The notes below the pieces were generated by a model that searched no databases, was not told the DNA's origin, and was given only the letters and a program-made list of their open reading frames with translations. A DNA stretch of 64,000 bases. It comes from Patescibacteria group bacterium (GTDB taxonomy: Bacteria > Patescibacteriota > Minisyncoccia > Minisyncoccales > CAZWNE01). Positions within the stretch are counted from its first letter, which is position 1; the number at the start of each line of letters is the position of its first letter. Both the position numbers and the translations under genes were made by a program. This document shows, one piece after another, positions 2-55,683 of this stretch. The stretch covers positions 8,538 to 72,537 of the forward strand of contig JBBTTI010000003.1 in assembly GCA_038078735.1 (NCBI GenBank). Direction: 5' to 3'.

Positions 2-691
2 CCTGTTAAGATTATTGCTGAAAAATATAATATTCCTGTTGGACATTCAATGTCTAACATAAAAGACTTGAAACCAGATTTAATTGTGGTGGCTGCTTAT
101 GGTCAGATTTTACCTAAAGAGATTTTGGAAATTCCTAAATATGGCTGTTTAAATGTTCATCCTTCTTTGCTACCAAAGTACAGGGGTGCAACCCCTGTAC
201 AATCTGCTATTCTAAACGGCGATAAGGAAACCGGAGTCAGTATTATTAAAATGGTAGAAAGGGTTGATGCGGGCGGAATAGTATCTAGTATTAAGTGTTT
301 AGTATCCAGAGACGAGACTTATAAAACTCTCTCTGACAAATTAGCGGACTTAGGGACTAAGTCCCTAAGTGAAGTAATCCCAGATTGGGTGGAAGGGAAA
401 ATAAAAGCTTTGCCGCAAGATGAAACAAAAGCGACTTATACGAAAATGATTAAGAAAGAAGATGGACTTATTGACTGGAAGAGCTCAATAGATTATATTG
501 AAAAGCAAGTGCGAGCCTTAAATCCGTGGCCTAGCACCTATACCCTATATAACGGGAAAATATTAAAAATACTAAAGGTAGAAATAACAAACAATAAGCT
601 AATAATAAAAGAGGTCCAGCCGGAAGGAAAAAAACCGATGAATTTTGAAGATTTTCTCCGCGGACATAATGATTTTAAAATACCATGTTAA
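2..691 (+). CDS. fmt: methionyl-tRNA formyltransferase (5' end outside window)
   Basis: Open frame runs to base 2. Translation has Fmt motifs (VAAYGQILPKEIL, NVHPSLLPKYRGATPVQ) and the C-terminal domain. Confidence 0.85.
   Translation, partial: PVKIIAEKYNIPVGHSMSNIKDLKPDLIVVAAYGQILPKEILEIPKYGCLNVHPSLLPKYRGATPVQSAILNGDKETGVSIIKMVERVDAGGIVSSIKCLVSRDETYKTLSDKLADLGTKSLSEVIPDWVEGKIKALPQDETKATYTKMIKKEDGLIDWKSSIDYIEKQVRALNPWPSTYTLYNGKILKILKVEITNNKLIIKEVQPEGKKPMNFEDFLRGHNDFKIPC
349..369. repeat. family D palindrome inside fmt (CTTAGGGACT-a-AGTCCCTAAG)
   Basis: Perfect 10-1-10, in-frame (DLGTKSLSE). A further family-A-like site (GGACATTCAATGTCTAAC) lies at 38..58, also inside fmt. Confidence 0.75.
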
Positions 692-4500: not shown

Positions 4501-5472
4501 TTAATAATTTGTCGTAATCGTTCGGTGATAAGGCAATAACGGTTCATTTTCTTTAGATAAAACCCATAAAATCCAATCGAGATTACTTGATGTTAAACCC
4601 CTGCCTAAGCCGTTTAATTCCCCAAGGAGCAATTCACAAGCATAAATGGTATTTGTCCTTATTTCTATTTCTTCCCGAGAATTCTTTTCAATTAACTCAT
4701 AATTCGCGAGCTTATTCTTTAATTTTTCACTATAAACTAGTATCCCCTCTGACTCTAAAAGTTGTGGCAACTTATAATCGGCAAATATAGTTAGATCTTC
4801 CATGTTTTTAAAATATCCCGTATTCTTATTTTGAAAAGCGTAATTTATATCACTGACAAATAATTGGGCTCTTTTTAAAAAATATATCTTTTGTCCATTG
4901 GATTCGAAATAATCATTAAAACTTGGGAAATCATTAATAATTAACTCCACAAGTTTATTAACGTTATTTTTTGCCGCCGTAACTAAATTTATAGCCTTGC
5001 CATTATATTTTTCTTGAAGTATTTTAAAGTTTTCTCGGATAATTTCGTGTCGTTCTTTCAACAGTAATAACTCTCCCCTACTCTCAAAAATCTTAGCAAA
5101 TTCGTCAAAAGTTATTTCCGACAAATATGATGCATCAAGTAATTTTTTATCAGCTAAAAACGCTTTTTTAATCGCGTAAGAAAAAGCGTAATAGCCATGC
5201 AGCCACTGGTCGTCTTTTTCAAACTCCCACCGTTTTTTCTCTTGAGTATTCCAAAAACAAAAATTAATACTATCTAGAAAAAAATAGTATTGAACAGTTT
5301 CTTCGGGACTCCCTAAAAATTGCAAGACATTATCCCAGCCAGGAATAGGATATTTTTCAAGTTTTTTTGCTAAAAGAGTAATTTTCGAATTATCTATCCT
5401 AACCGAAGAACTGTTTTTTACAACAGGATCAATTGATCTTAAAATTTTTTCTTTGATAGAAATATTCTCCAT
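4501..5472 (-). CDS. DUF2419/Qng1-like queuosine salvage family protein (tentative)
   Basis: 323 aa. Motif pattern (IPGWDN, FFLDSINFCFW, LHGYYAFSYA) is recalled from the Qng1/DUF2419 family. The assignment is from memory and is not certain. Confidence 0.45.
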   Translation of the reverse strand: MENISIKEKILRSIDPVVKNSSSVRIDNSKITLLAKKLEKYPIPGWDNVLQFLGSPEETVQYYFFLDSINFCFWNTQEKKRWEFEKDDQWLHGYYAFSYAIKKAFLADKKLLDASYLSEITFDEFAKIFESRGELLLLKERHEIIRENFKILQEKYNGKAINLVTAAKNNVNKLVELIINDFPSFNDYFESNGQKIYFLKRAQLFVSDINYAFQNKNTGYFKNMEDLTIFADYKLPQLLESEGILVYSEKLKNKLANYELIEKNSREEIEIRTNTIYACELLLGELNGLGRGLTSSNLDWILWVLSKENEPLLPYHRTITTNY

Positions 5473-5522
5473 AATAAATCTATCATATCAAAAAATCGCC
5501 CCGATGAAAGAGGGACGATTTT

Positions 5523-5580
5523 TTTACTCTATAAATGTCAGGGCCTTGCCTTTTTTGTTCCAGCGGCCGGTTCGGCCGAA
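5523..5580. repeat. 58-bp copy of the helicase 3' end (direct repeat bounding island 1)
   Basis: tttactctataaatgtcagggccttgccttttttgttccagcggccggttcggccga nearly equals 6536..6592, which encodes ...GRTGRWNKKGKALTFIE-stop of the DEAD-box helicase. Confidence 0.8.
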
Positions 5581-5618: not shown

Positions 5619-5643
5619 ATGTTAGACACTAAGTACCTAACAT
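5619..5643. repeat. REP-like palindrome, family A (GTTAGACA..TGTCTAAC type, imperfect)
   Basis: atgttagacactaagtacctaacat. Shares the GTTAG..CTAAC arms with copies at 5937, 11598, 36102, 48340, 49009, 55250 and 55651. Confidence 0.7.
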
Positions 5644-5792
5644 CCGACCAGTAGTATAGTAGAGACCCGATCTCTACCTAAGACTTTGGCGATAAAATAA
5701 AAAACCACCCTTCAAATTCATCGGGATGATTTCTTATCCTACGTTATTAAACATTGAATGTTTGATAAACTACAAGTTTCTTTGCTAATAAG

Positions 5793-5917
5793 GGTATTTT
5801 TGAGTTGTCTATCTGGACAAAAGAACTGTTTTTTATAACAGGATCAATCGATCTTAAAATTTTCTCTTTTATAGAAATATTCTCCATAATATATTTATCC
5901 TATCAAAAAATCGCCTG
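5793..5917. pseudogene. duplicated 5'-end fragment of the DUF2419 gene (start codon + first ~30 codons + upstream hairpin)
   Basis: About 125 bp at ~88% identity to 5381..5507 (aagaactgttttttacaacaggatcaattgatcttaaaattttttctttgatagaaatattctccat...). It has no downstream gene body. Confidence 0.75.
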
Positions 5918-5936: not shown

Positions 5937-5961
5937 ATGTTAAACACTGAGTACCTAACAT
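5937..5961. repeat. REP-like palindrome, family A (degenerate)
   Basis: atgttaaacactgagtacctaacat. Confidence 0.6.
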
Positions 5962-6436: not shown

Positions 6437-6536
6437 TGTTCTCACCTCCTTTCTGTAAAAATTTGGAAACGAGAGAGAAACCTTTAAGGTGCTTTGGAAA
6501 GAATTCTACTCTCTTTCCATACCATATGATAACACT

Positions 6537-7736
6537 TTACTCTATAAATGTCAAGGCTTTGCCTTTTTTGTTCCAGCGGCCGGTTCGGCCGATTCTGTGG
6601 ATATATTCGTCAAAAGTCGCCGGCACATCAAAATTAATAACATGGCTGACATCGGCAATATCAAGACCCCTAGCCGCCACATCAGTTGCCACTAAAATTT
6701 GAATACGGCTTTCTTTAAACATAGTTAGGGCTTTTTGGCGCTGGGAGTGATTTTTATTTCCGTGGATGGATTCCGCCCTAAAACCTTTTTGAATAAGTAT
6801 TTTTGAGAGCCGTTCCACTCCGTGCTTGGTTCTGCCGAAAATAAGCACCTTGGTAAATTCCTCTTTAATCAAAAGATTATCAAGAACATCTATTTTATTT
6901 TTACCCCGATCTATTCTGACAATATCCTGATCAACATTACTTGAAGTGTCTCTGGTTTTTACCGAAACTCTTATCGGATTTTTAAGAAATTCTTTGATAA
7001 TTTTTTCCACCGAGTAAGGAATGGTTGCCGAAAAAAACAGCACCTGTTTTTCTTTTGGCAAACCGTTCATTATAAAACGGGTGTCCTGGATAAAACCCAT
7101 ATCAAGCATCCGATCAGCTTCATCCAAAACAACGGTATTAAATCTGGATAAATTAATCATCCTTCTTTCTATCAGGTCCTTGAGCCGGCCGGGCGTGCCG
7201 ATAATTAAATTATAATTATAGCGAAGCTCGGAAATTTGTTTGCCGATGCTCATTCCGCCGACGCAGCAAACGGAAAAAATCCGCATTCCTTTAGTAAAAG
7301 ATTTAAGCTCCTGGTCTATTTGAATGGCCAACTCGCGGGTCGGAGTGACAATCAAAACTTGTTCTTTCGGATTTAATAAAATTTTATTAATAAGGGGTAT
7401 GAGAAAAGCGGCTGTTTTGCCCGTGCCGGTATTGGCAATACCGACAACATCCGAACCGTCAATAATATGAGAAATAATCCGATCTTGGATGGGCGTAGGC
7501 GCATCGTAACCTTTGGCCAAAATAGCCCGAATTATTCGCTGGTCAATTTTAAAATCCTGAAATTTGTGTTCAGATATAAAATTCTCCATTCCTTCTATCT
7601 TTTCAACTACGACTGCTTTATTAATAAATCTTGCCGGATCTATTCTTTCTCCGCGTGAAAACCCCCTTCCTCTAGAAGGGGGCGCTTTAGTCAAGAATTT
7701 TCTTGATCCCGTGTAATGAAAGTTTCTACTATACAT
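6537..7736 (-). CDS. DEAD-box ATP-dependent RNA helicase
   Basis: Q-motif, Walker A GTGKTAAF, DEAD (VLDEAD), SAT and HRIGRTGR motifs. Confidence 0.9.
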   Translation of the reverse strand: MYSRNFHYTGSRKFLTKAPPSRGRGFSRGERIDPARFINKAVVVEKIEGMENFISEHKFQDFKIDQRIIRAILAKGYDAPTPIQDRIISHIIDGSDVVGIANTGTGKTAAFLIPLINKILLNPKEQVLIVTPTRELAIQIDQELKSFTKGMRIFSVCCVGGMSIGKQISELRYNYNLIIGTPGRLKDLIERRMINLSRFNTVVLDEADRMLDMGFIQDTRFIMNGLPKEKQVLFFSATIPYSVEKIIKEFLKNPIRVSVKTRDTSSNVDQDIVRIDRGKNKIDVLDNLLIKEEFTKVLIFGRTKHGVERLSKILIQKGFRAESIHGNKNHSQRQKALTMFKESRIQILVATDVAARGLDIADVSHVINFDVPATFDEYIHRIGRTGRWNKKGKALTFIE

Positions 7737-11597: not shown

Positions 11598-11618
11598 GTT
11601 AGACATTGAATGTCTAAC
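11598..11618. repeat. REP-like palindrome, family A (perfect 8-5-8: GTTAGACA ttgaa TGTCTAAC)
   Basis: Perfect inverted repeat in the intergenic space. Confidence 0.8.
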
Positions 11619-16252: not shown

Positions 16253-17686
16253 ATGCTTAAACTTTATAATACTTTATCGCGAAAAAAGGAAATATTGAGA
16301 CCCTTCGCTAAGGCTCAGGGCGAAAAACTAAAGTTTTTCATCTGCGGGCCGACGGTTTATGATTTTTCTCACTTAGGCCACGCCAGAACCTATATTGCTT
16401 TTGATATGATCGTGAAATATCTAAGGCAAAAAGGATATGATGTTTTTTATCTGCAAAACATAACTGATCTTGATGACAAAATCATAAAACGTGCGGAGGA
16501 AAAAAATATTACGCCCCAAAAGTTAGCCAGAGATTTTGAGAAAGAATATTTAAAAGATATTAAGGCCCTTAAAATAACCAGCGTTTCAAAATACGCCAGA
16601 GCCACGGATTATATTAAGGAAATTATCAGTCAGACAGAACGACTTTTGAAAAAGGGTTTTGCCTATCAAATAGAAGACGGAATTTATTTTGATATTTTAA
16701 AATTTAAAGATTACGGCAAACTTTCACGGAGAACGGTTCTCCGGGCCGAAGACGGAGTTTCTCGGATTGATGAAAGTGTTAAAAAAATAAATAAAGGCGA
16801 CTTCTGCTTGTGGAAATTTTCAAAACCAGAAGAACCAACATGGACTAGTCCGTGGGGTCAAGGCCGGCCCGGGTGGCATATTGAAGATACGGCCATTACG
16901 GAAAAGTTCTTTGGATCGCAATACGATATTCACGGCGGCGCCAGAGATCTGATATTTCCCCATCATGAAGCGGAAATATCCCAAATGGAAGCGATTTCCG
17001 GTAAAAAACCTTTGGTAAAATATTGGCTTCATACCGGATTTTTAACCGTCGATGGCCAGAAAATGTCAAAATCACTGGGGAATTTCATTACTATCCAAGA
17101 TTTTCTCAAAAATCACTCGCCCCGCTTACTCCGATTTTTAGTCATAAAAAGCCACTATCGATCTCCGATTGATTATAGTGAGAAAGTTATTTCTCAAACT
17201 AAAAAAGAATTGGAACGGATAGATGAATTTATTGATAAACTATTGAGGCCGAACCTCCATAGTTTAAAATCGGGGAGGTTCGGCCTCTTAAAATTCAAGA
17301 ACGCTTTTGATAACGCTATGAATGATGATTTTAATACGTCAAAGGCAATAGCTGTAATTTTTAATTTGATTAATAAAGGAAACGCTATAATTGCCCAAAA
17401 TAAATTATCTTCTAGCGATGCTAAAAATATTTTAGGCTTTTTAAAAATAATTGATAAATTCTTTGGTTTTATCTTTTGGCAGAAATCCGAAAATAAGCAA
17501 CCTCAGAGGTTGCTTAGCCTAGTTAAGCAACGGCAAAAATATCGGGAACAGGACAATTGGCAAAAAGCTGACGAGATGAGAGAGGAAATTAAAAAACTAG
17601 GATATTCAATAGAAGACACAAGTAAAGGACCAGTAATTAAAAGAAGCTTAGCTTCTCACTTAGAAGCTAAGCTTCTAAGTACCTAA
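16253..17686 (+). CDS. cysS: cysteine--tRNA ligase
   Basis: HLGHARTY and KMSKSLGN class I motifs. The last ~12 codons are encoded by a family B palindrome. Confidence 0.9.
   Translation: MLKLYNTLSRKKEILRPFAKAQGEKLKFFICGPTVYDFSHLGHARTYIAFDMIVKYLRQKGYDVFYLQNITDLDDKIIKRAEEKNITPQKLARDFEKEYLKDIKALKITSVSKYARATDYIKEIISQTERLLKKGFAYQIEDGIYFDILKFKDYGKLSRRTVLRAEDGVSRIDESVKKINKGDFCLWKFSKPEEPTWTSPWGQGRPGWHIEDTAITEKFFGSQYDIHGGARDLIFPHHEAEISQMEAISGKKPLVKYWLHTGFLTVDGQKMSKSLGNFITIQDFLKNHSPRLLRFLVIKSHYRSPIDYSEKVISQTKKELERIDEFIDKLLRPNLHSLKSGRFGLLKFKNAFDNAMNDDFNTSKAIAVIFNLINKGNAIIAQNKLSSSDAKNILGFLKIIDKFFGFIFWQKSENKQPQRLLSLVKQRQKYREQDNWQKADEMREEIKKLGYSIEDTSKGPVIKRSLASHLEAKLLST
17495..17515. repeat. intragenic perfect palindrome AAGCAACCTC-A-GAGGTTGCTT inside cysS
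   Basis: 10-1-10 inverted repeat read in-frame as ...KQPQRLLS... Confidence 0.7.
17642..17676. repeat. REP-like palindrome, family B (AGAAGCTTAGCTTCT cactt AGAAGCTAAGCTTCT), copy 1
   Basis: Perfect 15-bp arms. It forms the C-terminus and stop region of cysS. Near-identical copies lie at 19683 and 33072, with a variant at 32942. Confidence 0.85.
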
Positions 17687-19682: not shown

Positions 19683-19717
19683 AGAAGCTTAGCTTCTCAC
19701 TTAGAAGCTAAGCTTCT
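19683..19717. repeat. REP-like palindrome, family B, copy 2 (between convergent recR and rplU; overlaps the rplU stop codon)
   Basis: Identical 15-5-15 palindrome. Confidence 0.85.
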
Positions 19718-20033
19718 AAGACTTGAGGTCAATGGTTTTAATCTCTACTTCAGTAAATTGCTGACGATGGCCCTTTTTGAGGTGATAGCGTTTTTTGGCT
19801 TTATATTTAAAAATAATTACTTTTTTGGCCTTTCCCTGACTTAGTACTTTTCCCGTCACCTTAGCTCCTTTAACAGTTGGAGATCCGATCTCCAATTTAT
19901 CGTCTTTCTCCAAAAGCAAAACTTCGTCAAAGATAACCTCTTTGCCGTCTTCAATTTCCAGTTTTTCAATTTTAACTTTTTCTCCGGGTTTAACAATATA
20001 TTGCTTTCCCCCGGTTTTAATCACAGCCAACAT
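19716..20033 (-). CDS. rplU: 50S ribosomal protein L21
   Basis: MLAVIKTGGKQYIVKPGEKVKIEKL. Start placed at the internal Met that matches the bL21 N-terminus. Confidence 0.85.
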   Translation of the reverse strand: MLAVIKTGGKQYIVKPGEKVKIEKLEIEDGKEVIFDEVLLLEKDDKLEIGSPTVKGAKVTGKVLSQGKAKKVIIFKYKAKKRYHLKKGHRQQFTEVEIKTIDLKS

Positions 20034-21064: not shown

Positions 21065-21833
21065 TAGCGAGAAGTGTTCTCGCTAATATTTATTCAATTA
21101 CAACTTGATCAAAATCGGCTAATTCTTTTTTAGATTGCAACCAATCGTTAACAAATCTTTGGCAGCCTTGAACGCCGCCCATTAGTTCGGTTAGAAATTC
21201 CCTGCTGGTTAAAGATGGAAAATTTTTCTCGTCTAAATAATCTATGTAGCTTGACCAGCGATATTTCTTTAAAAATTTTAATACTTTCTGAAAGTCCCCA
21301 CCCTTAATCCCCTTTTCTTTCCAACCCGGAACTATTATCGCCACAGGGTTAGTATGAATATAAACAAAAACGGTCATTAGTTGATTGTCATTTTTAATAT
21401 GAACTAGCTTATATCTTCCATCAAACAAATGTCCGCTTCTTTTATATTTTTTATTATAATATCCGCCGTACCCAGCGCCAAGCTTTCTCATAAATTTACT
21501 AATCCCACCTTCGCCAAGCTGTCTAAGCAATAAATGGATATGATTCGGCATCAAACAAAACGCCAATATCTCCACTAATAGTTTTCTCTTCCTTCTTTTA
21601 TCCCTTTCTAATAGTCCGAGAAATGTTCTCGAACTATTGAAACTTCGACGAAAATTCCATAACGCTGGCGCTTCATCGTTAAATTCAAACAGATCATGAA
21701 TCATCCTAAAATAATCTTTTTCGTCGCGAAAAAGCTTCAAGCCTTCTATCGCTCTGATTACAACATGGTATATTTCTCCAGTAACTAATGGCGGTCGTTT
21801 TGTGGACATATAATGTGCCGAGAAATGTTCTCG
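21065..21833 (-). mobile_element. RAYT/IS200-like unit 1: Y1 transposase gene flanked by CGAGAA..TTCTCG hairpins
   Basis: TAGCGAGAAgtgTTCTCGCTA at 21065..21085, CGAGAAatgTTCTCG at 21819..21833, and an intragenic copy at 21617..21631. Confidence 0.6.
21090..21809 (-). CDS. COG1943 / IS200-like HuH Y1 transposase (REP-associated tyrosine transposase-like)
   Basis: HuH motif LMPNHIHLLL and the YIHTNPV tyrosine motif. Paralogous to 40181..40879. Confidence 0.7.
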   Translation of the reverse strand: MSTKRPPLVTGEIYHVVIRAIEGLKLFRDEKDYFRMIHDLFEFNDEAPALWNFRRSFNSSRTFLGLLERDKRRKRKLLVEILAFCLMPNHIHLLLRQLGEGGISKFMRKLGAGYGGYYNKKYKRSGHLFDGRYKLVHIKNDNQLMTVFVYIHTNPVAIIVPGWKEKGIKGGDFQKVLKFLKKYRWSSYIDYLDEKNFPSLTSREFLTELMGGVQGCQRFVNDWLQSKKELADFDQVVIE

Positions 21834-21863
21834 CTAGTTTATAATAACACAGAACCTTTCTAT

Positions 21864-27366: not shown

Positions 27367-27502
27367 CGTGCCATTTCATACCCTTATGTATCCTTTATAC
27401 CCCACCTCAAGCCACATCGTCAACAAAATTCCCCACTTCTAAAAATAAGGCTAAAATCAAGATTTATGCACACCTTTTCCCCACCACACATAAATAAAAC
27501 AT

Positions 27503-27585
27503 CAGAGGGGTGTCCTCCGCTGTTTTCTGTGGTTGGCTTAGCCAACCACAACTACTGCTTAATCTGGAAGGTTTCAGGGTTAATT
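27503..27585. repeat. ~83-bp direct repeat (left copy) duplicating the 3' end of the clpB-like gene; boundary of island 2
   Basis: cagagg..tcctccgctgttttctgtggttggcttagccaaccacaactactgcttaatctggaaggtttc is about 93% identical to 29175..29259. This left copy has in-frame stops. Confidence 0.8.
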
Positions 27586-27597
27586 TTTATTCGAAAT

Positions 27598-27618
27598 GAT
27601 AGACGTTCAACGTCTATC
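27598..27618. repeat. REP-like palindrome, GATAGACGTT-c-AACGTCTATC variant
   Basis: Perfect 10-1-10. Sister copy at 35690..35710. Confidence 0.7.
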
Positions 27619-27662
27619 ATTCGTCTATTACTATGTTTATCACTATTTTAATAATAAAAAGG

Positions 27663-27697
27663 CGGCGAGATTTAAAACCTCGCCGCTTTGCGATTAT
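27663..27697 (-). terminator. rho-independent terminator of the island gene
   Basis: AGCGGCGAG..CTCGCCGC hairpin followed by a T-run on the minus strand. Confidence 0.5.
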
Positions 27698-27702
27698 TGA
27701 TA

Positions 27703-28782
27703 TTAACTCAGCTCTCCGATTGCTACGCCACGAAACTGCTTACGCTTTTGAAGACTTTGCTCTTCAAGAATTTTGCGGTTTGCCGGTGTAATGGTAGCAA
27801 TAATATCGCCGATCGAATCGGATTTGCCTTGCGACATTTTGTAGAGATTCGCTATTCCCGCGAGCGTCATCTCCCGACCATCTTTGGCAAAATGGTTAGC
27901 AACCCAAGCGATCATTCTTGCATCCTCACCGACATAAGCGATGTCGGAAAGCGCGAAAACTCGGCCCTTGCCATTAAACATCATTGTCAGACCCTCGCCC
28001 TTGAGCCACTCCACGACCTGAACATCAGTCTGGCTGTCCCCGACATACATCACCCTCCTTTTTGGAATGCCGAATCTTTGACAAACCGTTTCCATTACCT
28101 CCCGCTTCTGGGTTTGGCCAACAGGATGAACCGTCCTTAGTAATCGGCCGACAGGCATATTGTAAACCTTGTCCCAAATAAATCTGGTGAATTCGTCGTA
28201 GTCGGCTTGATGTTCAGGAACGATATCCCCTGTTTCTTTGTAGTAATCAACAACTGGTTTTCTAGCGATTGATACCATGAAGCCCAGGAGTTGCGCTGTT
28301 TCTGTCGCACTGATAGGAATCTCATCAAACCCCGTAACTCTAGTACAGTTGGTCTGACTGAAATTGAATCCCACCTTGTGACAATACGCCCTGACAAACC
28401 ACTCGTAGCTGGTGGAAATCATCCAGACATTGCAGCCGCGACGAAGATCGGTCAAGGCCTCTTTGACAAAAGGCACCACTCGGAGACTCTTACTGGAAAA
28501 ATCTTGTAACCATCGAGAGTCAGCTCCCATCGCCTTGAAGAACGGCAGAACAACTTTCAAGGTATGACCGGAAGAATAGTTTGGGTCTTGGGGAATTAAA
28601 TGACAGTCGCCCCATACGTCATCAATCCCACTAAACCTCGCGTAGGCGCGCTCCCCGATTTCTTTACCTAAGCCGGACTTTTCAGCCAATGCCACCATAA
28701 TCTGTTGAGCATTGTCATTAATGACTTGCGGCCCTTCCAAATCCAGGATAACCCAAATTCCATTTATTTTTACCCACCTCAT
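27703..28782 (-). CDS. hypothetical HAD-like hydrolase-fold protein (atypical motif I) on a GC-rich island
   Basis: 359 aa at about 48% GC. N-terminal WVILDLEGP has DxE in place of DxDG. C-terminal VMYVGDSQTDVQ resembles HAD motif IV. Family assignment is tentative. Confidence 0.4.
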   Translation of the reverse strand: MRWVKINGIWVILDLEGPQVINDNAQQIMVALAEKSGLGKEIGERAYARFSGIDDVWGDCHLIPQDPNYSSGHTLKVVLPFFKAMGADSRWLQDFSSKSLRVVPFVKEALTDLRRGCNVWMISTSYEWFVRAYCHKVGFNFSQTNCTRVTGFDEIPISATETAQLLGFMVSIARKPVVDYYKETGDIVPEHQADYDEFTRFIWDKVYNMPVGRLLRTVHPVGQTQKREVMETVCQRFGIPKRRVMYVGDSQTDVQVVEWLKGEGLTMMFNGKGRVFALSDIAYVGEDARMIAWVANHFAKDGREMTLAGIANLYKMSQGKSDSIGDIIATITPANRKILEEQSLQKRKQFRGVAIGELS

Positions 28783-28789
28783 TTCTCTT

Positions 28790-29099
28790 AACTCCTTTCA
28801 AATTTTTTCCACTGCGGCGTTGATTTCCGCAGTCAGATCGTAGCCGTCTACCAAAAGCGTTCTCCTTTCGGCCAACATTTTTCCGGTTTAAATCGGAGCG
28901 AAGAAAAAGTTACCAAAGGTATTCCGGCCGTTTGGATATTACGAATCATCAAATCGCCGAAACGAGTTTCGCTTTGGTCGCGACTGACAAAGGCAAAACT
29001 TAATTGGAAGTTTTTGGAAATCTCATTAACTAACTCCCAAGCAACCTGGTCCCAAGCTGAAGTAAATACCCCTATTCTAAACATTAAACACCTCCTCAA
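28790..29099 (-). pseudogene. frameshifted formyltransferase-N-terminal-like fragment
   Basis: ORF 28848..29099 (MFRIGVFTSAWDQV...GIPLVTF) stops and the reading continues in another frame (..LLVDGYDLTAEINAAVEKI) up to the next gene's SD. Weak resemblance to PurN/Fmt N-terminal domains. Confidence 0.3.
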
Positions 29100-29174
29100 T
29101 TTTTATTCAGTTTCAAAAGGACTTCTGTCCTCCTTTATGTTTAGATTAACCATAAATCAATAAAAGTCAAACAG

Positions 29175-29259
29175 CAGAGGTCTGTCCTCCGCTGTTTTCT
29201 GTGGTTGGCTAAGCCAACCACAACTACTGCTTAATCTGGAAGGTTTCGGGGTCGATTTC
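29175..29259. repeat. ~83-bp direct repeat (right copy), overlapping the intact clpB-like 3' end and stop
   Basis: See 27503..27585. Includes the GTGGTTGGCTaAGCCAACCAC hairpin. Confidence 0.8.
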
Positions 29260-31761
29260 TACTTTACTGCCGCGCTTTATTTGATCAGAGAGAATGGCTG
29301 TGGCTAGGACATTGCCGATTTTGTCTTGGATAACTCTTTGCATCTGCCTGGCGCCAAAAGTCGGATCATATCCTAATTCCACAATCTTTGCTTTCAACTC
29401 GGGAGTTATAACAAATTCAATTTCCTTTTCCGCTAAATTCTTTTTCAGCTTCTTTAACAGAAGTTCGGCTACGCCTAAAAGATTATTTTTTGATAATGGA
29501 CCAAAGACAACCACTGAATCAAACCTGTTAATAAATTCCGGTCTAAAGATCGCTTTCTCAAAAACAAAATCCAAAAGCTTTGCCTTGACTTGGTCCCAAA
29601 CAGTATTTTCTTTTAACGCTTCGAGAATTATCTGATATCCGGCGTTTGACGTGGCAATAATAATTGAGTTTTTAAAATCAGTTTTCCTGCCCAAACCATC
29701 AGTCAACTGGCCCTCATCCAACACTTGCAAAAATAAATTTAAGATATTGGGATGAGCTTTTTCAATTTCATCTAAAAGTATTAAAGAGAAAGGCGCTTCT
29801 CTAATTTTAGTGGTTAACAACCCCTCTTGGCCGGGAGAACCGATTAAACGGGGAATATCGGCAATGTCTTGGAATTCCGACATATCCAGCCGAATCATTT
29901 TATTTTCCGAACCAAAATAAATTGTGGCCAAGGCCTTAGCTGTTTCAGTTTTGCCAACGCCGGTCGGTCCTAAAAATAAGAACGAACCGATCGTGCCTTT
30001 TCTGATACTGACTTCGGCTCTCGCCCTTCTTAGAGCCGAAGAAACCTCCCTAACAGCCTCTTCTTGATTAATAATCCTCTGATGAATTAAATTTTCCAAA
30101 TTTAAAAGGACTTCTTTTTCTTTTGTTTCTATTTCGCCAACCGGAATCTGGGTTTTTTCTGAAACAATTTTAAAGACATCTTCCGGCAAAAGTATTCTGG
30201 CTTTTTTCTGAGAGGCATAGACTATTATTTCATCCAATAATTTTATTACTTTTTCAGGATTAGTCTGCGAGGGCAAATATTTATCGGAAAGCCGGACGAT
30301 TTCCCGCAAGCTGGAATAAGAAATAAAAATCCTGTATCTTCTTTCCAAAATTAAAGATAAATTCTCTAAAAGCAATAATGTCTCCCGCTCTGAAATTTCC
30401 GCCACTTCAACCTTTTCAAAAAGATCTAAAATAGAAGAATTCTGCTCAATATTTCTGTGAAGGCCCTCAAAAGTGGTGATGGCTATTACCGGGAAATTTG
30501 GCAAAGCCAAGTAGGGCAAAATCACCCCGGAAATATTTAAAAAATTATGAAACTCGTCAATGACTAAAATAATATTTCCGGCAGTCGCTACTTCATTAAA
30601 AATAGCGTTTAAAAGGCTCTCCGGAGCTCCCTGATTGGTCAGACTTGCCAAATCAAGTTGCACTACTCTTTTATAATTAACTTCTTTTAAGCTCTCGCCC
30701 AAAACACTTCTTTTGGCTATAGCCTGAATTATGCTTTTTCTGCCGGACCCCGACTCTCCCACCATCAAAACGTTATTTTTTTCTCTGCGGGATAAAATTC
30801 TTTCTATCGCTTGAATTTCTTTTTGATGGCCGATAGTTTCCGGAAAGCCCTGCCTTTTGACCATATCTGACAAATCAAGAGAAAATTTATCCAAATTTAA
30901 AGTGTATCCGGCTGTCCAGTTTTTTGCCAGAGAGCCCTGTTTTATTAAATTTTTCCATTCCCAGAATTTTTTTCTCTCTTCAATATCTTCTTTCAGCGAC
31001 TGAAGCCACCAATTTAAATTTTTAATATCCTGATTCTTTAAATTAACGGCAACCAAGTACTTTTTGAAAGTAATATCAATTTCGCTGAAGGCCGATATTA
31101 AGTCCCCTACGCCGATTCTTTCTCCTCCTCGGTCTTTAGCGGCCTGAAAAGCAAGTAAAATAACTTTCTGGAAATCAAGGGAAAAAATTTCTTCCCCTGA
31201 ACGAGCTGAAGGGTCTCCCCGGAGCTTATCTAAACAAATTTTCAAGTCTTTTTTTATCCCCTTTAAATATAAAAGGGCCCGGGTAAATATAAAATTAATC
31301 TCCTTGCCGTCTTTAAGCGCAAAATAAAGCAGGGCCTCGGAAGAAATTTCGGCTAATTTTTTCTTGCGGGAAAATTTGATTGCTTCCCAACAAGCATTAG
31401 CCGCCCCAAGACTTAAAAATTCAGCTAAATTTACTCCTTCTTTATAATCTGGCAACCGAGGTTTTTTTAACTCCGACGCGCTTCCTAGCGGTCGGAGCTC
31501 CGATACTGATGGTCGTCGGAGTTTAGTTTTGAAAAAAATTTCCAAAAGCCAAAAAGTAATTGCCGAGGATAGAGTGATTAAGGAAAGCGCCAAAAATCTT
31601 TCCGGGAAGGAACGATAAAAAAGGGCCACCAAGAAAAAGAAAAATAAAGCAAAAAATAACCTTCTGATTAATTTGGCAAATCTGAAAACCGGAGTTTTTC
31701 CCCATTTTACCGCCGTAAATATTTTTGCTTTTTTTAAATTAAAATAGAATTGAGAATCCAT
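29224..31761 (-). CDS. ClpA/ClpB/ClpC-like double AAA+ ATPase with N-terminal TM segments and non-canonical D1 Walker A
   Basis: Clp N-domain repeats. D1 has GESGSGRKS in place of GEPGVGKT, with Walker B DEFH. D2 is canonical (GPTGVGKTE, sensor 2 GAR). The hydrophobic N-terminus is FFALFFFFLVALF. Confidence 0.75.
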   Translation of the reverse strand: MDSQFYFNLKKAKIFTAVKWGKTPVFRFAKLIRRLFFALFFFFLVALFYRSFPERFLALSLITLSSAITFWLLEIFFKTKLRRPSVSELRPLGSASELKKPRLPDYKEGVNLAEFLSLGAANACWEAIKFSRKKKLAEISSEALLYFALKDGKEINFIFTRALLYLKGIKKDLKICLDKLRGDPSARSGEEIFSLDFQKVILLAFQAAKDRGGERIGVGDLISAFSEIDITFKKYLVAVNLKNQDIKNLNWWLQSLKEDIEERKKFWEWKNLIKQGSLAKNWTAGYTLNLDKFSLDLSDMVKRQGFPETIGHQKEIQAIERILSRREKNNVLMVGESGSGRKSIIQAIAKRSVLGESLKEVNYKRVVQLDLASLTNQGAPESLLNAIFNEVATAGNIILVIDEFHNFLNISGVILPYLALPNFPVIAITTFEGLHRNIEQNSSILDLFEKVEVAEISERETLLLLENLSLILERRYRIFISYSSLREIVRLSDKYLPSQTNPEKVIKLLDEIIVYASQKKARILLPEDVFKIVSEKTQIPVGEIETKEKEVLLNLENLIHQRIINQEEAVREVSSALRRARAEVSIRKGTIGSFLFLGPTGVGKTETAKALATIYFGSENKMIRLDMSEFQDIADIPRLIGSPGQEGLLTTKIREAPFSLILLDEIEKAHPNILNLFLQVLDEGQLTDGLGRKTDFKNSIIIATSNAGYQIILEALKENTVWDQVKAKLLDFVFEKAIFRPEFINRFDSVVVFGPLSKNNLLGVAELLLKKLKKNLAEKEIEFVITPELKAKIVELGYDPTFGARQMQRVIQDKIGNVLATAILSDQIKRGSKVEIDPETFQIKQ

Positions 31762-32458: not shown

Positions 32459-33063
32459 TTGAGATAACGATATTTTTTAAATTGGTCTTTAAAAAATTGA
32501 TATTTTTTATAACCGAATTTTTCCAGCATTTTTTTGATATCTTCTTTTTGCAATGGATCGAATTCCATAAAGATCATATTACTTTTGTCTTTAGCTTCTC
32601 TCAAAAATATCTTAATAATATCTAATCCTTTTTCTCCGGAAAAAAGAGCGATGTGCGGTTCTTTTTCCAAAACCGAAAGTTGGACTTCATTGATGCGTTC
32701 CGTTGCTATATAAGGCGGGTTGGCAAAGATGACATCGTATTTTTTCCTTCTGATTTTTTCAAACAAATCTGATTTATAAATTTTATATCTTTTTGGAGAT
32801 ATTCTATTAAGCTTTAAATTAATTTTAATCTGCTTAATCGCGCCTTCATATATATCAACGAAGTCTACTCGACTATTTTTAATATTTTTCAAAACAGCAA
32901 CCCCAATGCATCCCGAACCGGCAAATATATCTAACGCTTTTAGAGGCTTAGCTTCCTTTTGGAAGCTAAGCCTCTTCAGAGCTTTTTCTACCCAGAATTC
33001 AGTTTCAATACGAGGAATCAAAACTTTTTCCCTTAAATCAATTTGACAGTTTAAAAATTTCAT
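32449..33063 (-). CDS. prmC: release factor glutamine N5-methyltransferase PrmC/HemK-like
   Basis: SAM-binding DIFAGSGCIG and the NPPY motif (FANPPYI). An in-frame family-B-variant palindrome lies at 32942..32975. Confidence 0.8.
   Translation of the reverse strand: MKFLNCQIDLREKVLIPRIETEFWVEKALKRLSFQKEAKPLKALDIFAGSGCIGVAVLKNIKNSRVDFVDIYEGAIKQIKINLKLNRISPKRYKIYKSDLFEKIRRKKYDVIFANPPYIATERINEVQLSVLEKEPHIALFSGEKGLDIIKIFLREAKDKSNMIFMEFDPLQKEDIKKMLEKFGYKKYQFFKDQFKKYRYLKCY
32942..32975. repeat. family B variant palindrome (AGAGGCTTAGCTTCC tttt GGAAGCTAAGCCTCT) inside the prmC coding sequence
   Basis: Perfect 15-bp arms, read in-frame as ..KRLSFQKEAKPLKA.. Confidence 0.8.
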
Positions 33064-33071
33064 ATCCCAAA

Positions 33072-33106
33072 AGAAGCTTAGCTTCTCACTTAGAAGCTAA
33101 GCTTCT
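33072..33106. repeat. REP-like palindrome, family B, copy 3 (between the tgt stop and the prmC start)
   Basis: Identical to copies 1 and 2. Confidence 0.85.
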
Positions 33107-33109
33107 AAT

Positions 33110-35689: not shown

Positions 35690-35710
35690 GATAGACGTTG
35701 AACGTCTATC
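35690..35710. repeat. REP-like palindrome GATAGACGTT-g-AACGTCTATC
   Basis: Perfect 10-1-10, followed by CATTAC as at 27619. Confidence 0.7.
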
Positions 35711-35748
35711 ATTACATTTCTCTCAAAAAAAAGGCACGGTGGAGAAAT

Positions 35749-36009
35749 TCAAGGCCGTGCCCGAGAGATAAGCTCTCCTTGTTGAGGAAGCGATTGAGCA
35801 ATTTTAGCATCTTTCTGAGCTATAGTTATGGCAGTTGCCATTGCTTGCGCCCCTTCTTTTTGTATCAAGTGCACAAATTGTCCAGGCAGAATTTGACCCT
35901 TAATATCATAGCCGTCTTTCCTTACCCAAGGAGCTTCATTTAGAACGAGATAATAGAAGATAAAATGAGATTCCGGAATAGAAATTCTTTTCTGTTTTAT
36001 TCCTAACAA
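35749..36009 (-). CDS. hypothetical small protein (doubtful)
   Basis: 86-aa ORF in the GC-rich island with no family match. May be a gene remnant. Confidence 0.2.
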   Translation of the reverse strand: MLGIKQKRISIPESHFIFYYLVLNEAPWVRKDGYDIKGQILPGQFVHLIQKEGAQAMATAITIAQKDAKIAQSLPQQGELISRARP

Positions 36010-36101: not shown

Positions 36102-36122
36102 TGTTAGACGTCTGGCGTCTAA
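36102..36122. repeat. REP-like palindrome family A variant GTTAGACG-tctgg-CGTCTAAC
   Basis: Perfect 8-5-8. Identical core at 55651..55671. Confidence 0.8.
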
Positions 36123-36146
36123 CATTACATCGCACAACTTGCGAGA

Positions 36147-40157: not shown

Positions 40158-40939
40158 GTAGATGTTTGACATCTACAAGCCTAATCAATTGATAATTTCC
40201 CAAGAATTTCTTTAGTATTTCTAACTAAAAGAGCATTATAAATAAATTCCTTATAACTTTTATTATTACCAGATGATAGTCCTAAACTATTTCTATCCCC
40301 TTCATCTATAATAAATAGATTACGTTTTAATAAAGTATCCTGAAGACTGCTAAAAGAATAATTTGTAGCAAAATCAAAAGCCTTATCAAATTGTTTAACG
40401 GCCGCCTCTGTCCCTCCGGGATAAAGTTCAATTGGATTCAAAACTTGAATATAAGCGTCAAGATACTGGATATACTCATCATTTTTTATTGTTTTTGACT
40501 TATATGATCCTTGGAAAACTTTCCCCGATTCTTTATATTTTGTATTAATATAATTAGTGAAACCACCACTAAGTTTTTTCATAAACATACTTACTCCGCC
40601 TTCCTTTATTTCTTTTAGCAGCAAGTGAAAATGGTTTGGCATTAAACAAAAAGAGAGAATTTTTACTAACGGTTTTGGCACCGGCCATTCTGCTGGCCTA
40701 CTAAAAGTATTATTTTTTACTTGACGAAAAATATTAGATAAAGAATATTCGTCATTAAAATAACGAAGAATTTTCAAAAAACGCCATTTATCATTATCGT
40801 CTTGTGTAATCGGCATTTTCCGATTACCTCGATTATAAACGTGGATATAATCACCCACCGTAAATGCTTCTTTTCTCATAGGTTTATTTTAATCCAATCC
40901 ATCCGTAGGTGTCAAACCGTAGATGTCAAACATCTACGG
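40158..40939 (-). mobile_element. RAYT/IS200-like unit 2: Y1 transposase gene flanked by GTAGATG..CATCTAC hairpins
   Basis: GTAGATGT-ttg-ACATCTAC at 40158..40176 and CCGTAGATG-tcaaa-CATCTACGG at 40917..40939, plus a degenerate half-copy at 40902..40915. Confidence 0.65.
40181..40879 (-). CDS. COG1943 / IS200-like HuH Y1 transposase (RAYT-like), paralog 2
   Basis: LMPNHFHLLL HuH motif, GGVSMFMKKL, YIQVLNP tyrosine-region motif. Paralogous to 21090..21809. Confidence 0.7.
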   Translation of the reverse strand: MRKEAFTVGDYIHVYNRGNRKMPITQDDNDKWRFLKILRYFNDEYSLSNIFRQVKNNTFSRPAEWPVPKPLVKILSFCLMPNHFHLLLKEIKEGGVSMFMKKLSGGFTNYINTKYKESGKVFQGSYKSKTIKNDEYIQYLDAYIQVLNPIELYPGGTEAAVKQFDKAFDFATNYSFSSLQDTLLKRNLFIIDEGDRNSLGLSSGNNKSYKEFIYNALLVRNTKEILGKLSID

Positions 40940-45130: not shown

Positions 45131-45153
45131 TAATAAACTTAGAAACTCCGTTT

Positions 45154-48339: not shown

Positions 48340-48360
48340 GTTAGGTACTCAGTATCTAAC
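48340..48360. repeat. REP-like palindrome family A (GTTAGGTACT-c-AGTATCTAAC)
   Basis: Preceded by a gttagg half-site. Immediately 5' of CCCATCTTTCAGCC copy 2. Confidence 0.7.
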
Positions 48361-48370
48361 ATGTGCCTAT

Positions 48371-49008: not shown

Positions 49009-49029
49009 GTTAGATACTCAGTACCTAAC
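49009..49029. repeat. REP-like palindrome family A (GTTAGATACT-c-AGTACCTAAC)
   Basis: Immediately 5' of CCCATCTTTCAGCC copy 3. Confidence 0.7.
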
Positions 49030-55249: not shown

Positions 55250-55270
55250 GTTAGGTACTCAGTGTCTAAC
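55250..55270. repeat. REP-like palindrome family A (GTTAGGTACT-c-AGTGTCTAAC)
   Basis: Preceded by a gttag half-site. Confidence 0.7.
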
Positions 55271-55650: not shown

Positions 55651-55683
55651 GTTAGACGTCTGGCGTCTAACACCACGTCTAAC
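55651..55683. repeat. REP-like palindrome family A variant (GTTAGACG-tctgg-CGTCTAAC + extra CGTCTAAC arm)
   Basis: Same core as 36102..36122. Confidence 0.8.

What the first reader, a model, noticed from the sequence alone, without database searches (positions are those of the whole stretch)
11598..11618. Dispersed family A REPs (GTTAGNNNNT...ANNNNCTAAC with a TAGAC/GTCTA core) mark the edges of GC-rich islets
Copies lie at 5619, 5937, 11598, 36102, 48340, 49009, 55250 and 55651, with variants at 27598 and 35690. They cluster at the borders of the compositionally atypical segments: 5.5-6.5 kb, 27.6-29.2 kb, 34.3-36.1 kb, 48.3-49.9 kb and 55.2-56.1 kb.

Several are followed by the same CATTAC or ATCC flank. 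Their co-location with islets suggests they either mediate or mark the integration of horizontally acquired cargo.
Basis: seen in the sequence. Interest (0 to 1): 0.55.

Follow-up and report, generated by a model that had tools for sequence, protein, structure and literature searches.

The report
REP hairpins of a Patescibacteria transposase
The repeated 21-base hairpins are real and belong to a REP/RAYT-type system: short extragenic palindromes that flank, and are probably copied by, a single-strand-DNA (HUH-tyrosine) transposase-like gene in a tiny groundwater (CPR/Patescibacteria) bacterium. They sit in the variable parts of the genome, but nothing shows that they bring in foreign genes.

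Summary
Eleven copies of a 21-nt hairpin (9-bp stem, 3-nt loop; G[T/A]TAG-RYRY-NNN-RYRY-CTA[A/T]C) lie in the 64-kb window, against about 0.4 expected.

What they are:
- The same hairpin occurs in 73 stretches from dozens of Patescibacteria genomes and is strongly extragenic there.
- In 11 genomes it flanks both sides of a roughly 225-aa Y1 HUH gene.
- A contig from the same sample carries such a gene between GTTAGACACTGAGTACCTAAC and its exact reverse complement, which is identical to the window copy at 55250.
- The predicted fold of this protein is closest to E. coli RayT bound to a REP.
- Two further RAYT-like genes lie in the window itself, each with its own hairpin type.
- So family A is a REP family of a divergent REP/RAYT system.

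The "GC-rich islet edge" reading is only partly right:
- Only two of the five segments are GC outliers.
- Flank GC is not significantly raised (P=0.17).
- REPs lie inside or near lineage-specific segments, not at both borders.
- Three pseudo-copies of neighbouring gene ends abut REPs; this is suggestive and unexplained.

One unexpected extra: many of these RAYT-like genes carry a third, cognate hairpin inside the ORF, about 170 nt from the start.

The parts
38..58 (.). Family A REP copy GTTGGACATTCAATGTCTAAC, in frame inside the fmt coding sequence (encodes VGHSMSN)
   Evidence: (29 bits, E 3e-9)
5621..5641 (.). Family A REP, subtype A1 (GTTAGACAC-TAA-GTACCTAAC; imperfect stem). It lies 41 nt from a pseudo-copy of the DEAD-helicase 3' end.
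5746..5766 (.). Degenerate REP-like hairpin ATTAAACATTGAATGTTTGAT at the edge of the pseudo-copy of the Q_salvage 5' end (weak match)
   Evidence: 13.3 bits, E 0.045
5939..5959 (.). Family A REP, subtype A1 (GTTAAACAC-TGA-GTACCTAAC)
11598..11618 (.). Family A REP, perfect palindrome GTTAGACAT-TGA-ATGTCTAAC. It lies 28 nt after the ABC-F gene stop. ssDNA folding energy -9.1 kcal/mol, z -6.8.
27598..27618 (.). Family A REP variant GATAGACGT-TCA-ACGTCTATC (compensatory T>A/A>T change at positions 2/20). It lies 8 nt from the pseudo-copy of the clpB 3' end.
35690..35710 (.). Family A REP variant GATAGACGT-TGA-ACGTCTATC, 15 nt after the terminator of the 86-aa ORF
36103..36123 (.). Family A REP GTTAGACGT-CTG-GCGTCTAAC, 24 nt after the acylphosphatase stop; identical to the copy at 55651
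48340..48360 (.). Family A REP, A1-like (GTTAGGTAC-TCA-GTATCTAAC). It is absent from the otherwise alignable spacer of relative L090.
49009..49029 (.). Family A REP, A1-like (GTTAGATAC-TCA-GTACCTAAC)
55250..55270 (.). Family A REP, subtype A1 (GTTAGGTAC-TCA-GTGTCTAAC). It is identical to the REP downstream of the A-type RAYT gene on contig L093 of the same sample.
55651..55671 (.). Family A REP GTTAGACGT-CTG-GCGTCTAAC, followed by a partial repeat of its right arm (ACGTCTAAC)
40181..40879 (-). RAYT-like Y1 HUH gene (232 aa). It is flanked by its own hairpin type CGTAGATGT-TTG/CAA-ACATCTACG at 40157-40177 and 40917-40939, in inverted orientation.
21090..21809 (-). Second RAYT-like Y1 HUH gene (239 aa, 39% identical to the first). 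Its hairpins are of type (TAG)CGAGAA-NNN-TTCTCG(CTA): 21065-21085 downstream, about 21816-21837 upstream, and an internal copy about 21615-21633.
27492..27589 (.). Pseudo-copy (90% identical, 98 nt) of the clpB 3' end plus terminator hairpin. Its partner at 29164-29261 is the functional end. Together they bracket a 1.57-kb segment of GC 0.447.
5523..5579 (.). Pseudo-copy (96% identical, 57 nt) of the DEAD-helicase 3' end (functional copy at 6536-6592)
5764..5915 (.). Pseudo-copy (84% identical, 152 nt) of the Q_salvage 5' end and upstream region (functional copy at 5349-5500). It lies between two REPs.

Best explanation
Family A is a family of repetitive extragenic palindromes (REPs) belonging to a REP/RAYT-type system of Patescibacteria.

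The unit is a 21-23-nt hairpin. A cognate RAYT-like Y1 HUH enzyme of about 225 aa is encoded between two inverted copies of the same hairpin. It most likely recognises the hairpin as folded single-stranded DNA, nicks next to it through a covalent tyrosine intermediate, and so copies the hairpin in trans into new extragenic sites. The copies persist where they are tolerated, namely in the few roomy, non-essential spacers of a compact genome. That is why they coincide with variable 'islets'.

Shown here: the repeat, its extragenic bias, its pairing constraint, its physical association with the gene in 12 genomes, co-variation of hairpin type with gene clade, and the HUH/Tyr residues and RayT-like fold.

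Inferred from the E. coli RayT and IS608/ISDra2 paradigm: ssDNA recognition, cleavage and mobilisation.

The upstream copy overlaps the gene's promoter: TAGACA of the left arm, then 17 nt, then TATAAT, with the ATG 7-10 nt further on. Autoregulation of a leaderless transcript is therefore likely (inferred).
For: 1. Non-random, structured repeat. There are 10 matches against 0.44 expected. 95% of stem cells are paired, and 5 of 9 pairs show changes on both sides. At pair 8/14, which the search pattern did not constrain to pair, 20 sequences are A-T and 28 are G-C, against 2 non-Watson-Crick.

2. Distribution. The pattern TGTTAGACRTNNNRYGTCTAACA hits 73 stretches, almost all in Patescibacteria MAGs, with 8-10 strict copies in each of two Nealsonbacteria genomes. 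Only 17% of hits lie inside ORFs of 120 aa or more, against 79.5% of random positions.

3. Association with the gene. Hairpin pairs 665-750 bp apart flank Y1_Tnp homologues in 11 genomes.

4. Same sample as the window. Contig Hain_H14_02um_R1_60 has the same sample, the same Logan runs, coverage 7 and GC 0.366. It carries an A-type gene between GTTAGACACTGAGTACCTAAC and its exact reverse complement, which is identical to the window copy at 55250.

5. Co-variation. Other gene clades carry other hairpins: CGTAGATGT and TAGCGAGAA in the window, and TGTAGGACAT, TGCAAAGGT and ACTTAGAAAC elsewhere.

6. The protein.
- Pfam Y1_Tnp matches.
- The only NCBIfam hit is REP_Tyr_transpos, E 1e-8 to 1e-11.
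- The HUH histidines and the Tyr are invariant.
- hhalign to E. coli RayT gives E 5.5e-5 and aligns HUH, Y-I-x-x-NP and W-x-x-S.
- The AlphaFold model has pLDDT 87.5, and its best PDB match is 4ER8 (RayT bound to a REP), E 1.7e-6. That is ahead of the IS200/IS605 TnpAs.

7. Promoter overlap is seen in the gene-oriented flanks.
Against: - No biochemical evidence exists, and no polymorphic insertion was caught. All population contigs are 100% identical to the window.
- Family A lacks the GTAG/CGTC head typical of REPs (PMC3733652).
- The proteins score below the NCBIfam cut-off (33-45 bits against 80).
- The proteins lack the RAYT-specific N-terminal Thr and the full NP(L/V)(R/K)xG motif (PMC2817692).
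- No REPIN-type close inverted doublets occur in the window.
- The cognate A-type gene is not in the window. Its assignment to the same genome rests on sample, coverage, GC and shared REP subtype.
- The hairpin set used for the covariation count was partly selected for pairing.
Confidence: 0.8

Rival explanations
1. The hairpins are functional ends or recombination sites of small mobile cassettes. In this view, REP-bounded or REP-tipped segments (single small genes with their own promoter and terminator) are excised and inserted by the Y1 enzyme. That would create the islets and the duplicated gene ends.
For: - Four REP pairs 318-669 bp apart bracket one small unit each: the 86-aa ORF at 35749-36009, a 65-aa ORF at about 55274-55471, a 58-aa ORF at 48485-48661, and a gene fragment at 5764-5915. 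This mirrors the REP-gene-REP layout of the RAYT unit.
- Pseudo-copies of the clpB, DEAD and Q_salvage ends abut REPs.
- Similar REP-adjacent direct repeats occur in L078 and L073.
- All REPs in the syntenic 27 kb lie in lineage-specific DNA.
- Extra arm copies lie next to the hairpins in 11% of flanks, against 2.6% of random 15-mers.
Against: - The position of the REP relative to the duplicated segment is inconsistent: inside in the window, outside in L078.
- Members of a pair are more alike than other copies, which is as expected from local duplication.
- Cargo proteins have no REP-flanked homologues in other contexts.
- No RAYT remnants lie between the pairs.
- Proximity is not significant once restricted to intergenic space.
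- No empty-site versus filled-site pair was found at nucleotide resolution.
Confidence: 0.12
2. The hairpins primarily act at the RNA level, as terminators or 3'-end stabilisers of upstream genes. Their spread would then simply reflect selection for that role.
For: Most copies lie just downstream of stop codons: 3-28 nt after the stops at 11646, 36147 and 55274. Classical REPs are known to stabilise mRNA (PMC2817692, background).
Against: - There is no U-tract, and the 9-bp stems are AT-rich.
- Several copies follow a canonical GC-rich terminator with a T-run, at 27646-27690, 35730-35775 and 55195-55235.
- The A1 subtype folds weakly, -1.6 to -4.7 kcal/mol.
- The copy upstream of each RAYT gene overlaps a promoter rather than a terminator.
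- This reading does not explain the flanking of Y1 genes.
Confidence: 0.05
3. The hairpins are palindromic operators for a dimeric double-strand-DNA-binding regulator, or DNA-uptake signal sequences arranged as inverted pairs.
For: Many copies are perfect 21-23-bp palindromes with a single central asymmetric base. One copy overlaps a promoter.
Against: - The arm sequence varies with compensatory changes, while the gene it flanks changes clade.
- The half-site GTTAGAC is not over-represented on its own: 4 outside hairpins against 3.2 expected in total.
- Copies lie mainly downstream of genes.
Confidence: 0.03

Closest known systems
REP/RAYT systems of Proteobacteria (E. coli RayT/TnpA_REP, PDB 4ER8; Pseudomonas and Stenotrophomonas RAYTs; PMC2817692, PMC3116915, PMC3479197, PMC5581495)
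   Same: - Short extragenic palindromes occur in many copies.
- The Y1 HUH gene is flanked by two inverted copies of the same palindrome.
- Hairpin type co-varies with gene clade, and several divergent gene/hairpin families occur in one genome.
- The HUH and Tyr residues, Y-I-x-x-NP and a W-x-x-S(S/T) tail are present.
- The predicted fold is closest to RayT.
   Different: - Host phylum is Patescibacteria, where I found no published description.
- The head is GTTAG instead of GTAG/CGTC.
- Copies are singlets or wide direct pairs, not REPIN doublets.
- The proteins are about 225 aa rather than 165 aa. They score below the NCBIfam cut-off and lack the N-terminal Thr and the full NP(L/V)(R/K)xG motif.
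- The same hairpin sequence is shared by many species and classes of the phylum.
- The promoter is embedded in the upstream hairpin, with an apparently leaderless ORF.
- A third, cognate hairpin lies inside the ORF; it is absent from E. coli rayT.
IS200/IS605 insertion sequences and their PATE/MITE derivatives (IS608, ISDra2)
   Same: Y1 HUH chemistry, recognition of subterminal hairpins as ssDNA, and no terminal inverted repeats in the classical sense. The structural match is second best.
   Different: - TnpA proteins are about 130-150 aa.
- LE and RE hairpins are distinct and in direct orientation on one strand. Here the two flanks are exact reverse complements.
- The hairpins vastly outnumber the genes.
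- The gene copies are divergent paralogues (39% identical), not identical IS copies.
Integron attC sites and gene cassettes
   Same: The arms fit the core-site consensus (GTTAGAC = GTTRRRY, GTCTAAC = RYYYAAC). Folded hairpins lie next to small ORFan and toxin-antitoxin cassettes.
   Different: - The order of the two consensus arms is reversed: GTTRRRY lies on the 5' side.
- The length is 21 nt instead of 57-141 nt, and the stems lack extrahelical bases.
- No integron integrase appears among the Pfam-annotated genes of 1.6-57.5 kb.
- Copies are scattered between housekeeping genes, not arranged in one array.

Membership tests
REP/RAYT system | Short (20-40 nt) imperfect palindrome repeated many times in extragenic DNA | tested here: met
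   There are 11 copies in 64 kb, against 0.44 expected. Of strict copies in other genomes, 17% lie inside ORFs against 79.5% of random positions.
REP/RAYT system | Y1 gene flanked by two copies of the dispersed REP in inverted orientation | tested here: met
   L093 (same sample) has copies at 5962 and 6697 that are exact reverse complements, and the latter is identical to window 55250. Eleven other genomes show the same layout. The window gene 40181-40879 has loops TTG and CAA in its flanking hairpins. The A-type gene itself lies outside the window.
REP/RAYT system | HUH motif and catalytic tyrosine; fold of RayT | tested here: met
   The H-x-H histidines and the Tyr are invariant. hhalign to E. 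coli RayT gives E 5.5e-5. The best Foldseek PDB hit is 4ER8, E 1.7e-6.
REP/RAYT system | RAYT-specific motifs: conserved N-terminal Thr and NP(L/V)(R/K)xG after the Tyr (PMC2817692); curated NCBIfam NF047646 score | tested here: not met
   The N-terminus reads YYH(I/V)xNR, without the Thr. After the Tyr come NPRELK, NPVAII or NPIELY, so only NP is kept. NF047646 scores 33-45 bits against a cut-off of 80, although it is the only hit.
REP/RAYT system | Conserved GTAG or CGTC tetranucleotide at one end of the REP (PMC3733652) | tested here: not met
   Family A starts (T)GTTAG. GTAG is present in the hairpins of the window gene at 40181 (CGTAGATGT) and of L055 (TGTAGGACAT).
REP/RAYT system | Co-evolution of REP sequence with its RAYT | tested here: met
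   At least six gene clades each have a different flanking hairpin. A further 80 metagenome loci show many more hairpin types.
REP/RAYT system | REPIN doublets (two inverted REPs less than about 100 nt apart) as the replicating unit | tested here: inconclusive
   There are none in the window, where pairs are 318-669 nt apart with directly repeated flanks. One doublet 98 nt apart occurs on L093.
REP/RAYT system | Single-copy, vertically inherited (domesticated) gene | tested here: inconclusive
   At least 4 divergent paralogues occur in the sample's contigs. The unit is absent from orthologous sites of relatives. Many homologues sit on contigs of 0.9-3 kb. A whole genome and a phylogeny are needed.
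REP/RAYT system | Enzyme binds and cleaves the REP as ssDNA | not testable with these tools
   Only folding energies could be obtained: -8.7 to -10.9 kcal/mol for perfect copies and -1.6 to -4.7 for subtype A1.
IS200/IS605 insertion sequence | About 130-150-aa TnpA; distinct LE/RE hairpins in direct orientation; several identical copies of the whole element | tested here: not met
   The proteins are 213-241 aa, the flanks are inverted exact copies, the two window paralogues are 39% identical, and the hairpins far outnumber the genes.
Integron attC / cassette array | 5'-RYYYAAC...GTTRRRY-3' order, 57-141 nt, adjacent IntI integrase, contiguous array | tested here: not met
   The arm order is reversed and the length is 21 nt. 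No integrase appears among the Pfam-annotated genes. Copies are dispersed.
Intrinsic terminator | GC-rich stem followed by a T-run | tested here: not met
   There is no T-run after the hairpins. None of the REPs appears in the terminator scan of 47.5-56.3 kb.

The most novel reading that the evidence does not exclude
Patescibacteria carry a distinct branch of REP/RAYT systems in which the gene is a three-hairpin unit. The upstream hairpin doubles as the promoter, a cognate hairpin is embedded in frame about 55 codons into the ORF, and a third hairpin lies downstream. The internal hairpin would be a self-recognition site that regulates or limits the enzyme. The same enzyme/hairpin pairs would also shuffle small promoter-gene-terminator cassettes and copies of gene ends into intergenic hot spots. 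This would give these streamlined genomes an HUH-based, integron-like way of turning over accessory genes.
Probability: 0.12. Interest if true: 0.75.

Novelty: new variant of a known kind. Interest (0 to 1): 0.45.

Why it matters
REP/RAYT systems have been studied almost only in Proteobacteria. I found no description of them in the candidate phyla radiation. In those roughly 1-Mb genomes repeats are thought to be scarce, and the routes of gene turnover are poorly understood.

What this case shows:
- One hairpin family is conserved across many Patescibacteria lineages.
- Its cognate gene family has more than 1,400 detectable members, currently annotated only as 'transposase'.
- The repeats break metagenome assemblies and mark the variable spots of the genome. 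This is useful for binning, strain typing and finding accessory genes.

The internal cognate hairpin inside the ORF is a concrete, testable clue to how such domesticated single-strand transposases are controlled.

Tried and rejected
- The first literal pattern, with an 8-nt middle, found nothing because the true loop is 3 nt.
- Rfam gave only six tRNAs at the gathering threshold. In 48.3-49.2 kb there were only sub-threshold hits.
- Population variants: every contig carrying window proteins was 99.96-100% identical to the window. No presence/absence polymorphism could be read, and contigs merely break at the repeats.
- GC-rich-edge test: not significant.
- DNA-uptake-sequence idea: half-sites alone are not enriched.
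- Cargo mobility: the small islet proteins have no Pfam family and no homologues in the 73 REP loci. The 359-aa HAD/EhaR-like cargo has homologues of at most 60% identity, in other contexts without REPs.
- RAYT remnants between REP pairs: none.
- Systematic search for REP-adjacent direct repeats in other genomes: a few cases (L073, L078) with no consistent geometry.
- Sequence search of the PDB with one protein or a profile reached only the ISDra2 TnpA. The link to RayT needed hhalign and the fold search.
- Strand of action, judged from G-T wobbles and folding energies: ambiguous.

Full report
**1. The observation**

At 11598-11618 the window reads GTTAGACATTGAATGTCTAAC, a perfect 9-bp stem with a 3-nt loop. 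The pattern GTTAGN{5,25}CTAAC gives 10 matches against 0.44 expected, and 0 of 100 shuffles reach 10.

A scan that allows two mismatches in the ends finds several more elements:
- two GATAG...CTATC variants, at 27598 and 35690;
- a copy at 38;
- 5939 (GTTAAACAC...);
- other hairpin families.

A covariance model built from the family recovers 11 core copies with E<1e-5. These are 38, 5621, 5939, 11598, 27598, 35690, 36103, 48340, 49009, 55250 and 55651.

**2. Source organism and its Y1 genes**

The window comes from a groundwater Patescibacteria genome. Its proteins occur on contigs of ENA assembly ERZ1292646 (Hainich), and NCBI names them 'Patescibacteria group bacterium'. The nearest named relatives are Nealsonbacteria.

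The gene calls revealed two Pfam Y1_Tnp genes inside the window, 21090-21809 and 40181-40879, both on the minus strand. They are 39% identical.
- The second gene lies between CGTAGATGT-TTG-ACATCTACA and CCGTAGATGT-CAA-ACATCTACGG, that is, inverted copies of one hairpin.
- The first gene lies between hairpins of type (TAG)CGAGAA-NNN-TTCTCG(CTA).

[quoted passage not shown] Neither hairpin type is family A, however.

**3. The cognate gene of family A**

One scan of 185,579 species genomes was run with TGTTAGACRTNNNRYGTCTAACA, for which I calculate about 9 chance hits. It returned 73 stretches. Nearly all are in Patescibacteria MAGs (Nealsonbacteria, Vogelbacteria, Parcubacteria group and others), with 8-10 strict copies in each of two Nealsonbacteria genomes.

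Pairs of hits 665-750 bp apart enclose homologues of the window's Y1 genes (tblastn). In 11 genomes an 'A-type' gene of 213-241 aa is flanked by family A hairpins.

A search with one of these proteins found 1,426 homologues. One of them is P0251, on contig Hain_H14_02um_R1_60. This contig shares with the window's contigs:
- the same sample;
- the same Logan runs;
- coverage of 7;
- GC of 0.366.

There the gene (L093 6001-6678) lies between GTTAGACACTGAGTACCTAAC and GTTAGGTACTCAGTGTCTAAC. These are exact reverse complements of each other. The second is identical to the window copy at 55250. The first matches the 5621 and 5939 subtype. So the genome very probably encodes the cognate enzyme of family A, outside the window.

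**4. The protein**

- NCBIfam gives a single hit, REP_Tyr_transpos (E 1e-8 to 1e-11). It scores 33-45 bits against a cut-off of 80.
- The two HUH histidines and a Tyr in Y-I-H-x-NP are invariant.
- E. coli RayT aligns over HUH, Y-I-x-x-NP and the W-x-x-S tail (hhalign E 5.5e-5).
- An AlphaFold model of P0251 (pLDDT 87.5) matches 4ER8 best, 'REP associated tyrosine transposase bound to a REP hairpin' (E 1.7e-6). ISDra2 and IS608 TnpA follow at about 5e-4.
- The RAYT-specific N-terminal Thr and the full NP(L/V)(R/K)xG motif of PMC2817692 are not present.

The proteins are therefore a divergent RAYT-like branch, not canonical members.

**5. Properties of the hairpin**

- Across 51 distinct sequences, 95.4% of stem cells pair and 5 of 9 pairs carry changes on both sides. 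The set was partly chosen for pairing.
- Pair 8/14 was not constrained by the search pattern. It is A-T in 20 sequences and G-C in 28, with 2 not Watson-Crick.
- Strict copies avoid coding sequence: 17% lie inside ORFs of 120 aa or more, against 79.5% of random positions.
- The half-site alone is not enriched, so the hairpin is the unit.
- As ssDNA, perfect copies fold at -8.7 to -10.9 kcal/mol (z -4.8 to -9.6). The A1 subtype, which keeps the same two mismatches in all copies, folds weakly.
- An extra partial copy of an arm lies within 15 nt in 11% of flanks, against 2.6% of random 15-mers.
- Upstream of the A-type genes the hairpin ends 16-18 nt before the ATG. TAGACA in its left arm, 17 nt and then TATAAT form a sigma-70-type promoter with almost no leader. 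This suggests, by inference only, that the enzyme's own binding site controls its transcription.

**6. The islet idea: composition**

Only 27590-29163 (GC 0.447) and the gene 34406-35281 (0.509) are GC outliers. The other three segments have GC of 0.368, 0.382 and 0.41. Flank GC is not significantly raised (P=0.17).

**7. The islet idea: comparison with relatives**

- L089 and L090 (DnaE 86% identical) are collinear with window 39-63 kb at 70-80% nucleotide identity. They lack all four REPs there and the RAYT unit at 40.1-40.9 kb, all of which fall in segments without counterpart.
- In L037, RNase HII and dnaE are 46 bp apart, against 2.8 kb in the window.
- In L030 a REP-RAYT-REP unit of 801 bp sits between gatB and miaA, which overlap in the window.
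- In L027 a REP occupies the same spot upstream of mraZ, beside different genes.

REPs thus sit in the variable spacers, but inside them rather than at both edges.

**8. Duplicated gene ends**

The islets also show duplicated gene ends:
- a 98-nt, 90% identical copy of the clpB end plus terminator (27492-27589 against 29164-29261), with a REP 8 nt away;
- a 57-nt copy of the DEAD-helicase end, 41 nt from a REP;
- a 152-nt copy of the Q_salvage start, lying between a REP and a degenerate REP.

Such repeats are what a Campbell-type insertion of a circle carrying the gene end would leave, and a REP would lie at the circle junction. This is inference. The geometry differs in other genomes. Cargo homologues elsewhere lack REPs. 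By my estimate the proximity is not significant within intergenic space. I therefore rate 'mark' as supported and 'mediate' as unproven.

**9. An unexpected feature**

Many of these genes contain a third hairpin inside the ORF, about 150-210 nt from the start, and it matches their own flanking hairpin.
- In A-type genes it is always in frame, as GTT-A(G/A)A-CAT-NNN-ATG-TTT-AAC, encoding V-(R/K)-H-x-M-F-N.
- It is present, with the appropriate different sequence, in the window gene at 21090 (about 21615-21633), in L093b (ACTTAGAAAC...) and in L033 (GCAAAGGT...).
- In an independent set of 80 metagenome loci, 20 of 73 genes with a flank hairpin have a cognate internal one at +130 to +230. Permuting the flanks among loci gives 0.84 on average, with a maximum of 5 in 500 permutations.
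- In that set, internal stems of 7 bp or more pile up in the +150-199 bin: 25, against 1-5 in other bins.
- E. coli rayT has none.

I found no mention of this in the RAYT papers I checked. Its role is unknown. Autoregulation or self-limitation are the obvious hypotheses.

**10. Verdict**

The finding is a genuine REP family of a divergent REP/RAYT system in Patescibacteria. This is a known kind of element in a new host, with new architectural details. The link to islets is real as co-location and unproven as cause.

Noticed in passing
window 21615-21633; L093 6172-6192 and 1657-1677; L033, L010, L029, L030, L043, L045, L064, L079; 20 of the loci L099-L178: RAYT-like genes carry an internal copy of their own flanking hairpin about 150-210 nt into the ORF. 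In A-type genes it is in frame and encodes V-(R/K)-H-x-M-F-N. It co-varies with the flank hairpin across many specificity classes: 20 of 73 loci, against 0.84 expected. E. coli rayT lacks it.
   Followed up: partly
window 38-58: A family A hairpin lies in frame inside the fmt coding sequence (…PVGHSMSNIK…). It sits in a linker that is longer and unrelated in a homologue (L035).
   Followed up: partly
window 27492-27589 / 29164-29261; 5523-5579 / 6536-6592; 5349-5500 / 5764-5915: Direct repeats that are pseudo-copies of neighbouring gene ends (clpB 3', DEAD-helicase 3', Q_salvage 5') bracket the inserted segments. The clpB terminator palindrome differs between the two copies only in its central base, so one copy is the exact reverse complement of the other. 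The mechanism is unexplained.
   Followed up: partly
window 48370-48409 and 49063-49102; L090 8335-8395 and 9254-9314: A conserved stem-loop module (TCCCATCTTTCAGCC...GCTGAAAA) is repeated twice in the RNase HII-dnaE islet of both the window and a relative. The adjoining 64 nt (48394-48457) are 98% identical between genomes that are otherwise 75-80% identical. This may be a small RNA or a regulatory element.
   Followed up: no
window 56029-56127 (- strand); L089 9811-9870; L090 9755-9808: A near-consensus promoter (TTGACA-17-TATACT) is followed by a conserved 55-nt leader hairpin. In the window it precedes a 78-aa two-TM ORF (55740-55976). In the relatives it precedes a different gene next to dnaE, so it looks like a portable promoter/leader. 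A twin promoter lies at 49826-49854.
   Followed up: no
window 50376-54674: dnaE carries an intein (Pfam Intein_splicing, residues 614-979, with an endonuclease-like insert). Close relatives have intein-free alleles of about 1,058 aa.
   Followed up: no
window 17642-17680, 19683-19720, 32942-32975, 33072-33108, 43750-43788, 346-370; 45137-45159: Other dispersed hairpin families are present. AGAAGCTTAGCTTCT...AGAAGCTAAGCTTCT forms double hairpins at gene ends. ACTTAGAAAC...GTTTCTAAGT has its cognate RAYT-like gene on L093 (1210-1857). GGACAT-CGG-ATGTCC hairpins lie at 8911 and 43862 and resemble the flanks of the L055 gene.
   Followed up: partly
window 54725-55189: A hicB-hicA toxin-antitoxin pair lies immediately upstream of REP 55250. 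A hicB homologue also lies next to a family A REP in L034.
   Followed up: no
window 48687-48950 (- strand): A GC-rich, strongly structured 340-nt region lies upstream of the 58-aa membrane ORF, with long-range stem GTCTATCTG/CAGATAGAC and hairpin 48741-48783. Rfam gives only a sub-threshold 6S match (16 bits, E 0.86).
   Followed up: partly
RAYT homologues P0241-P0360: Many A-type RAYT homologues sit on contigs of only 0.9-3 kb, about the size of the REP-gene-REP unit. This suggests assemblies break at its borders, through repeats or context heterogeneity in populations.
   Followed up: no
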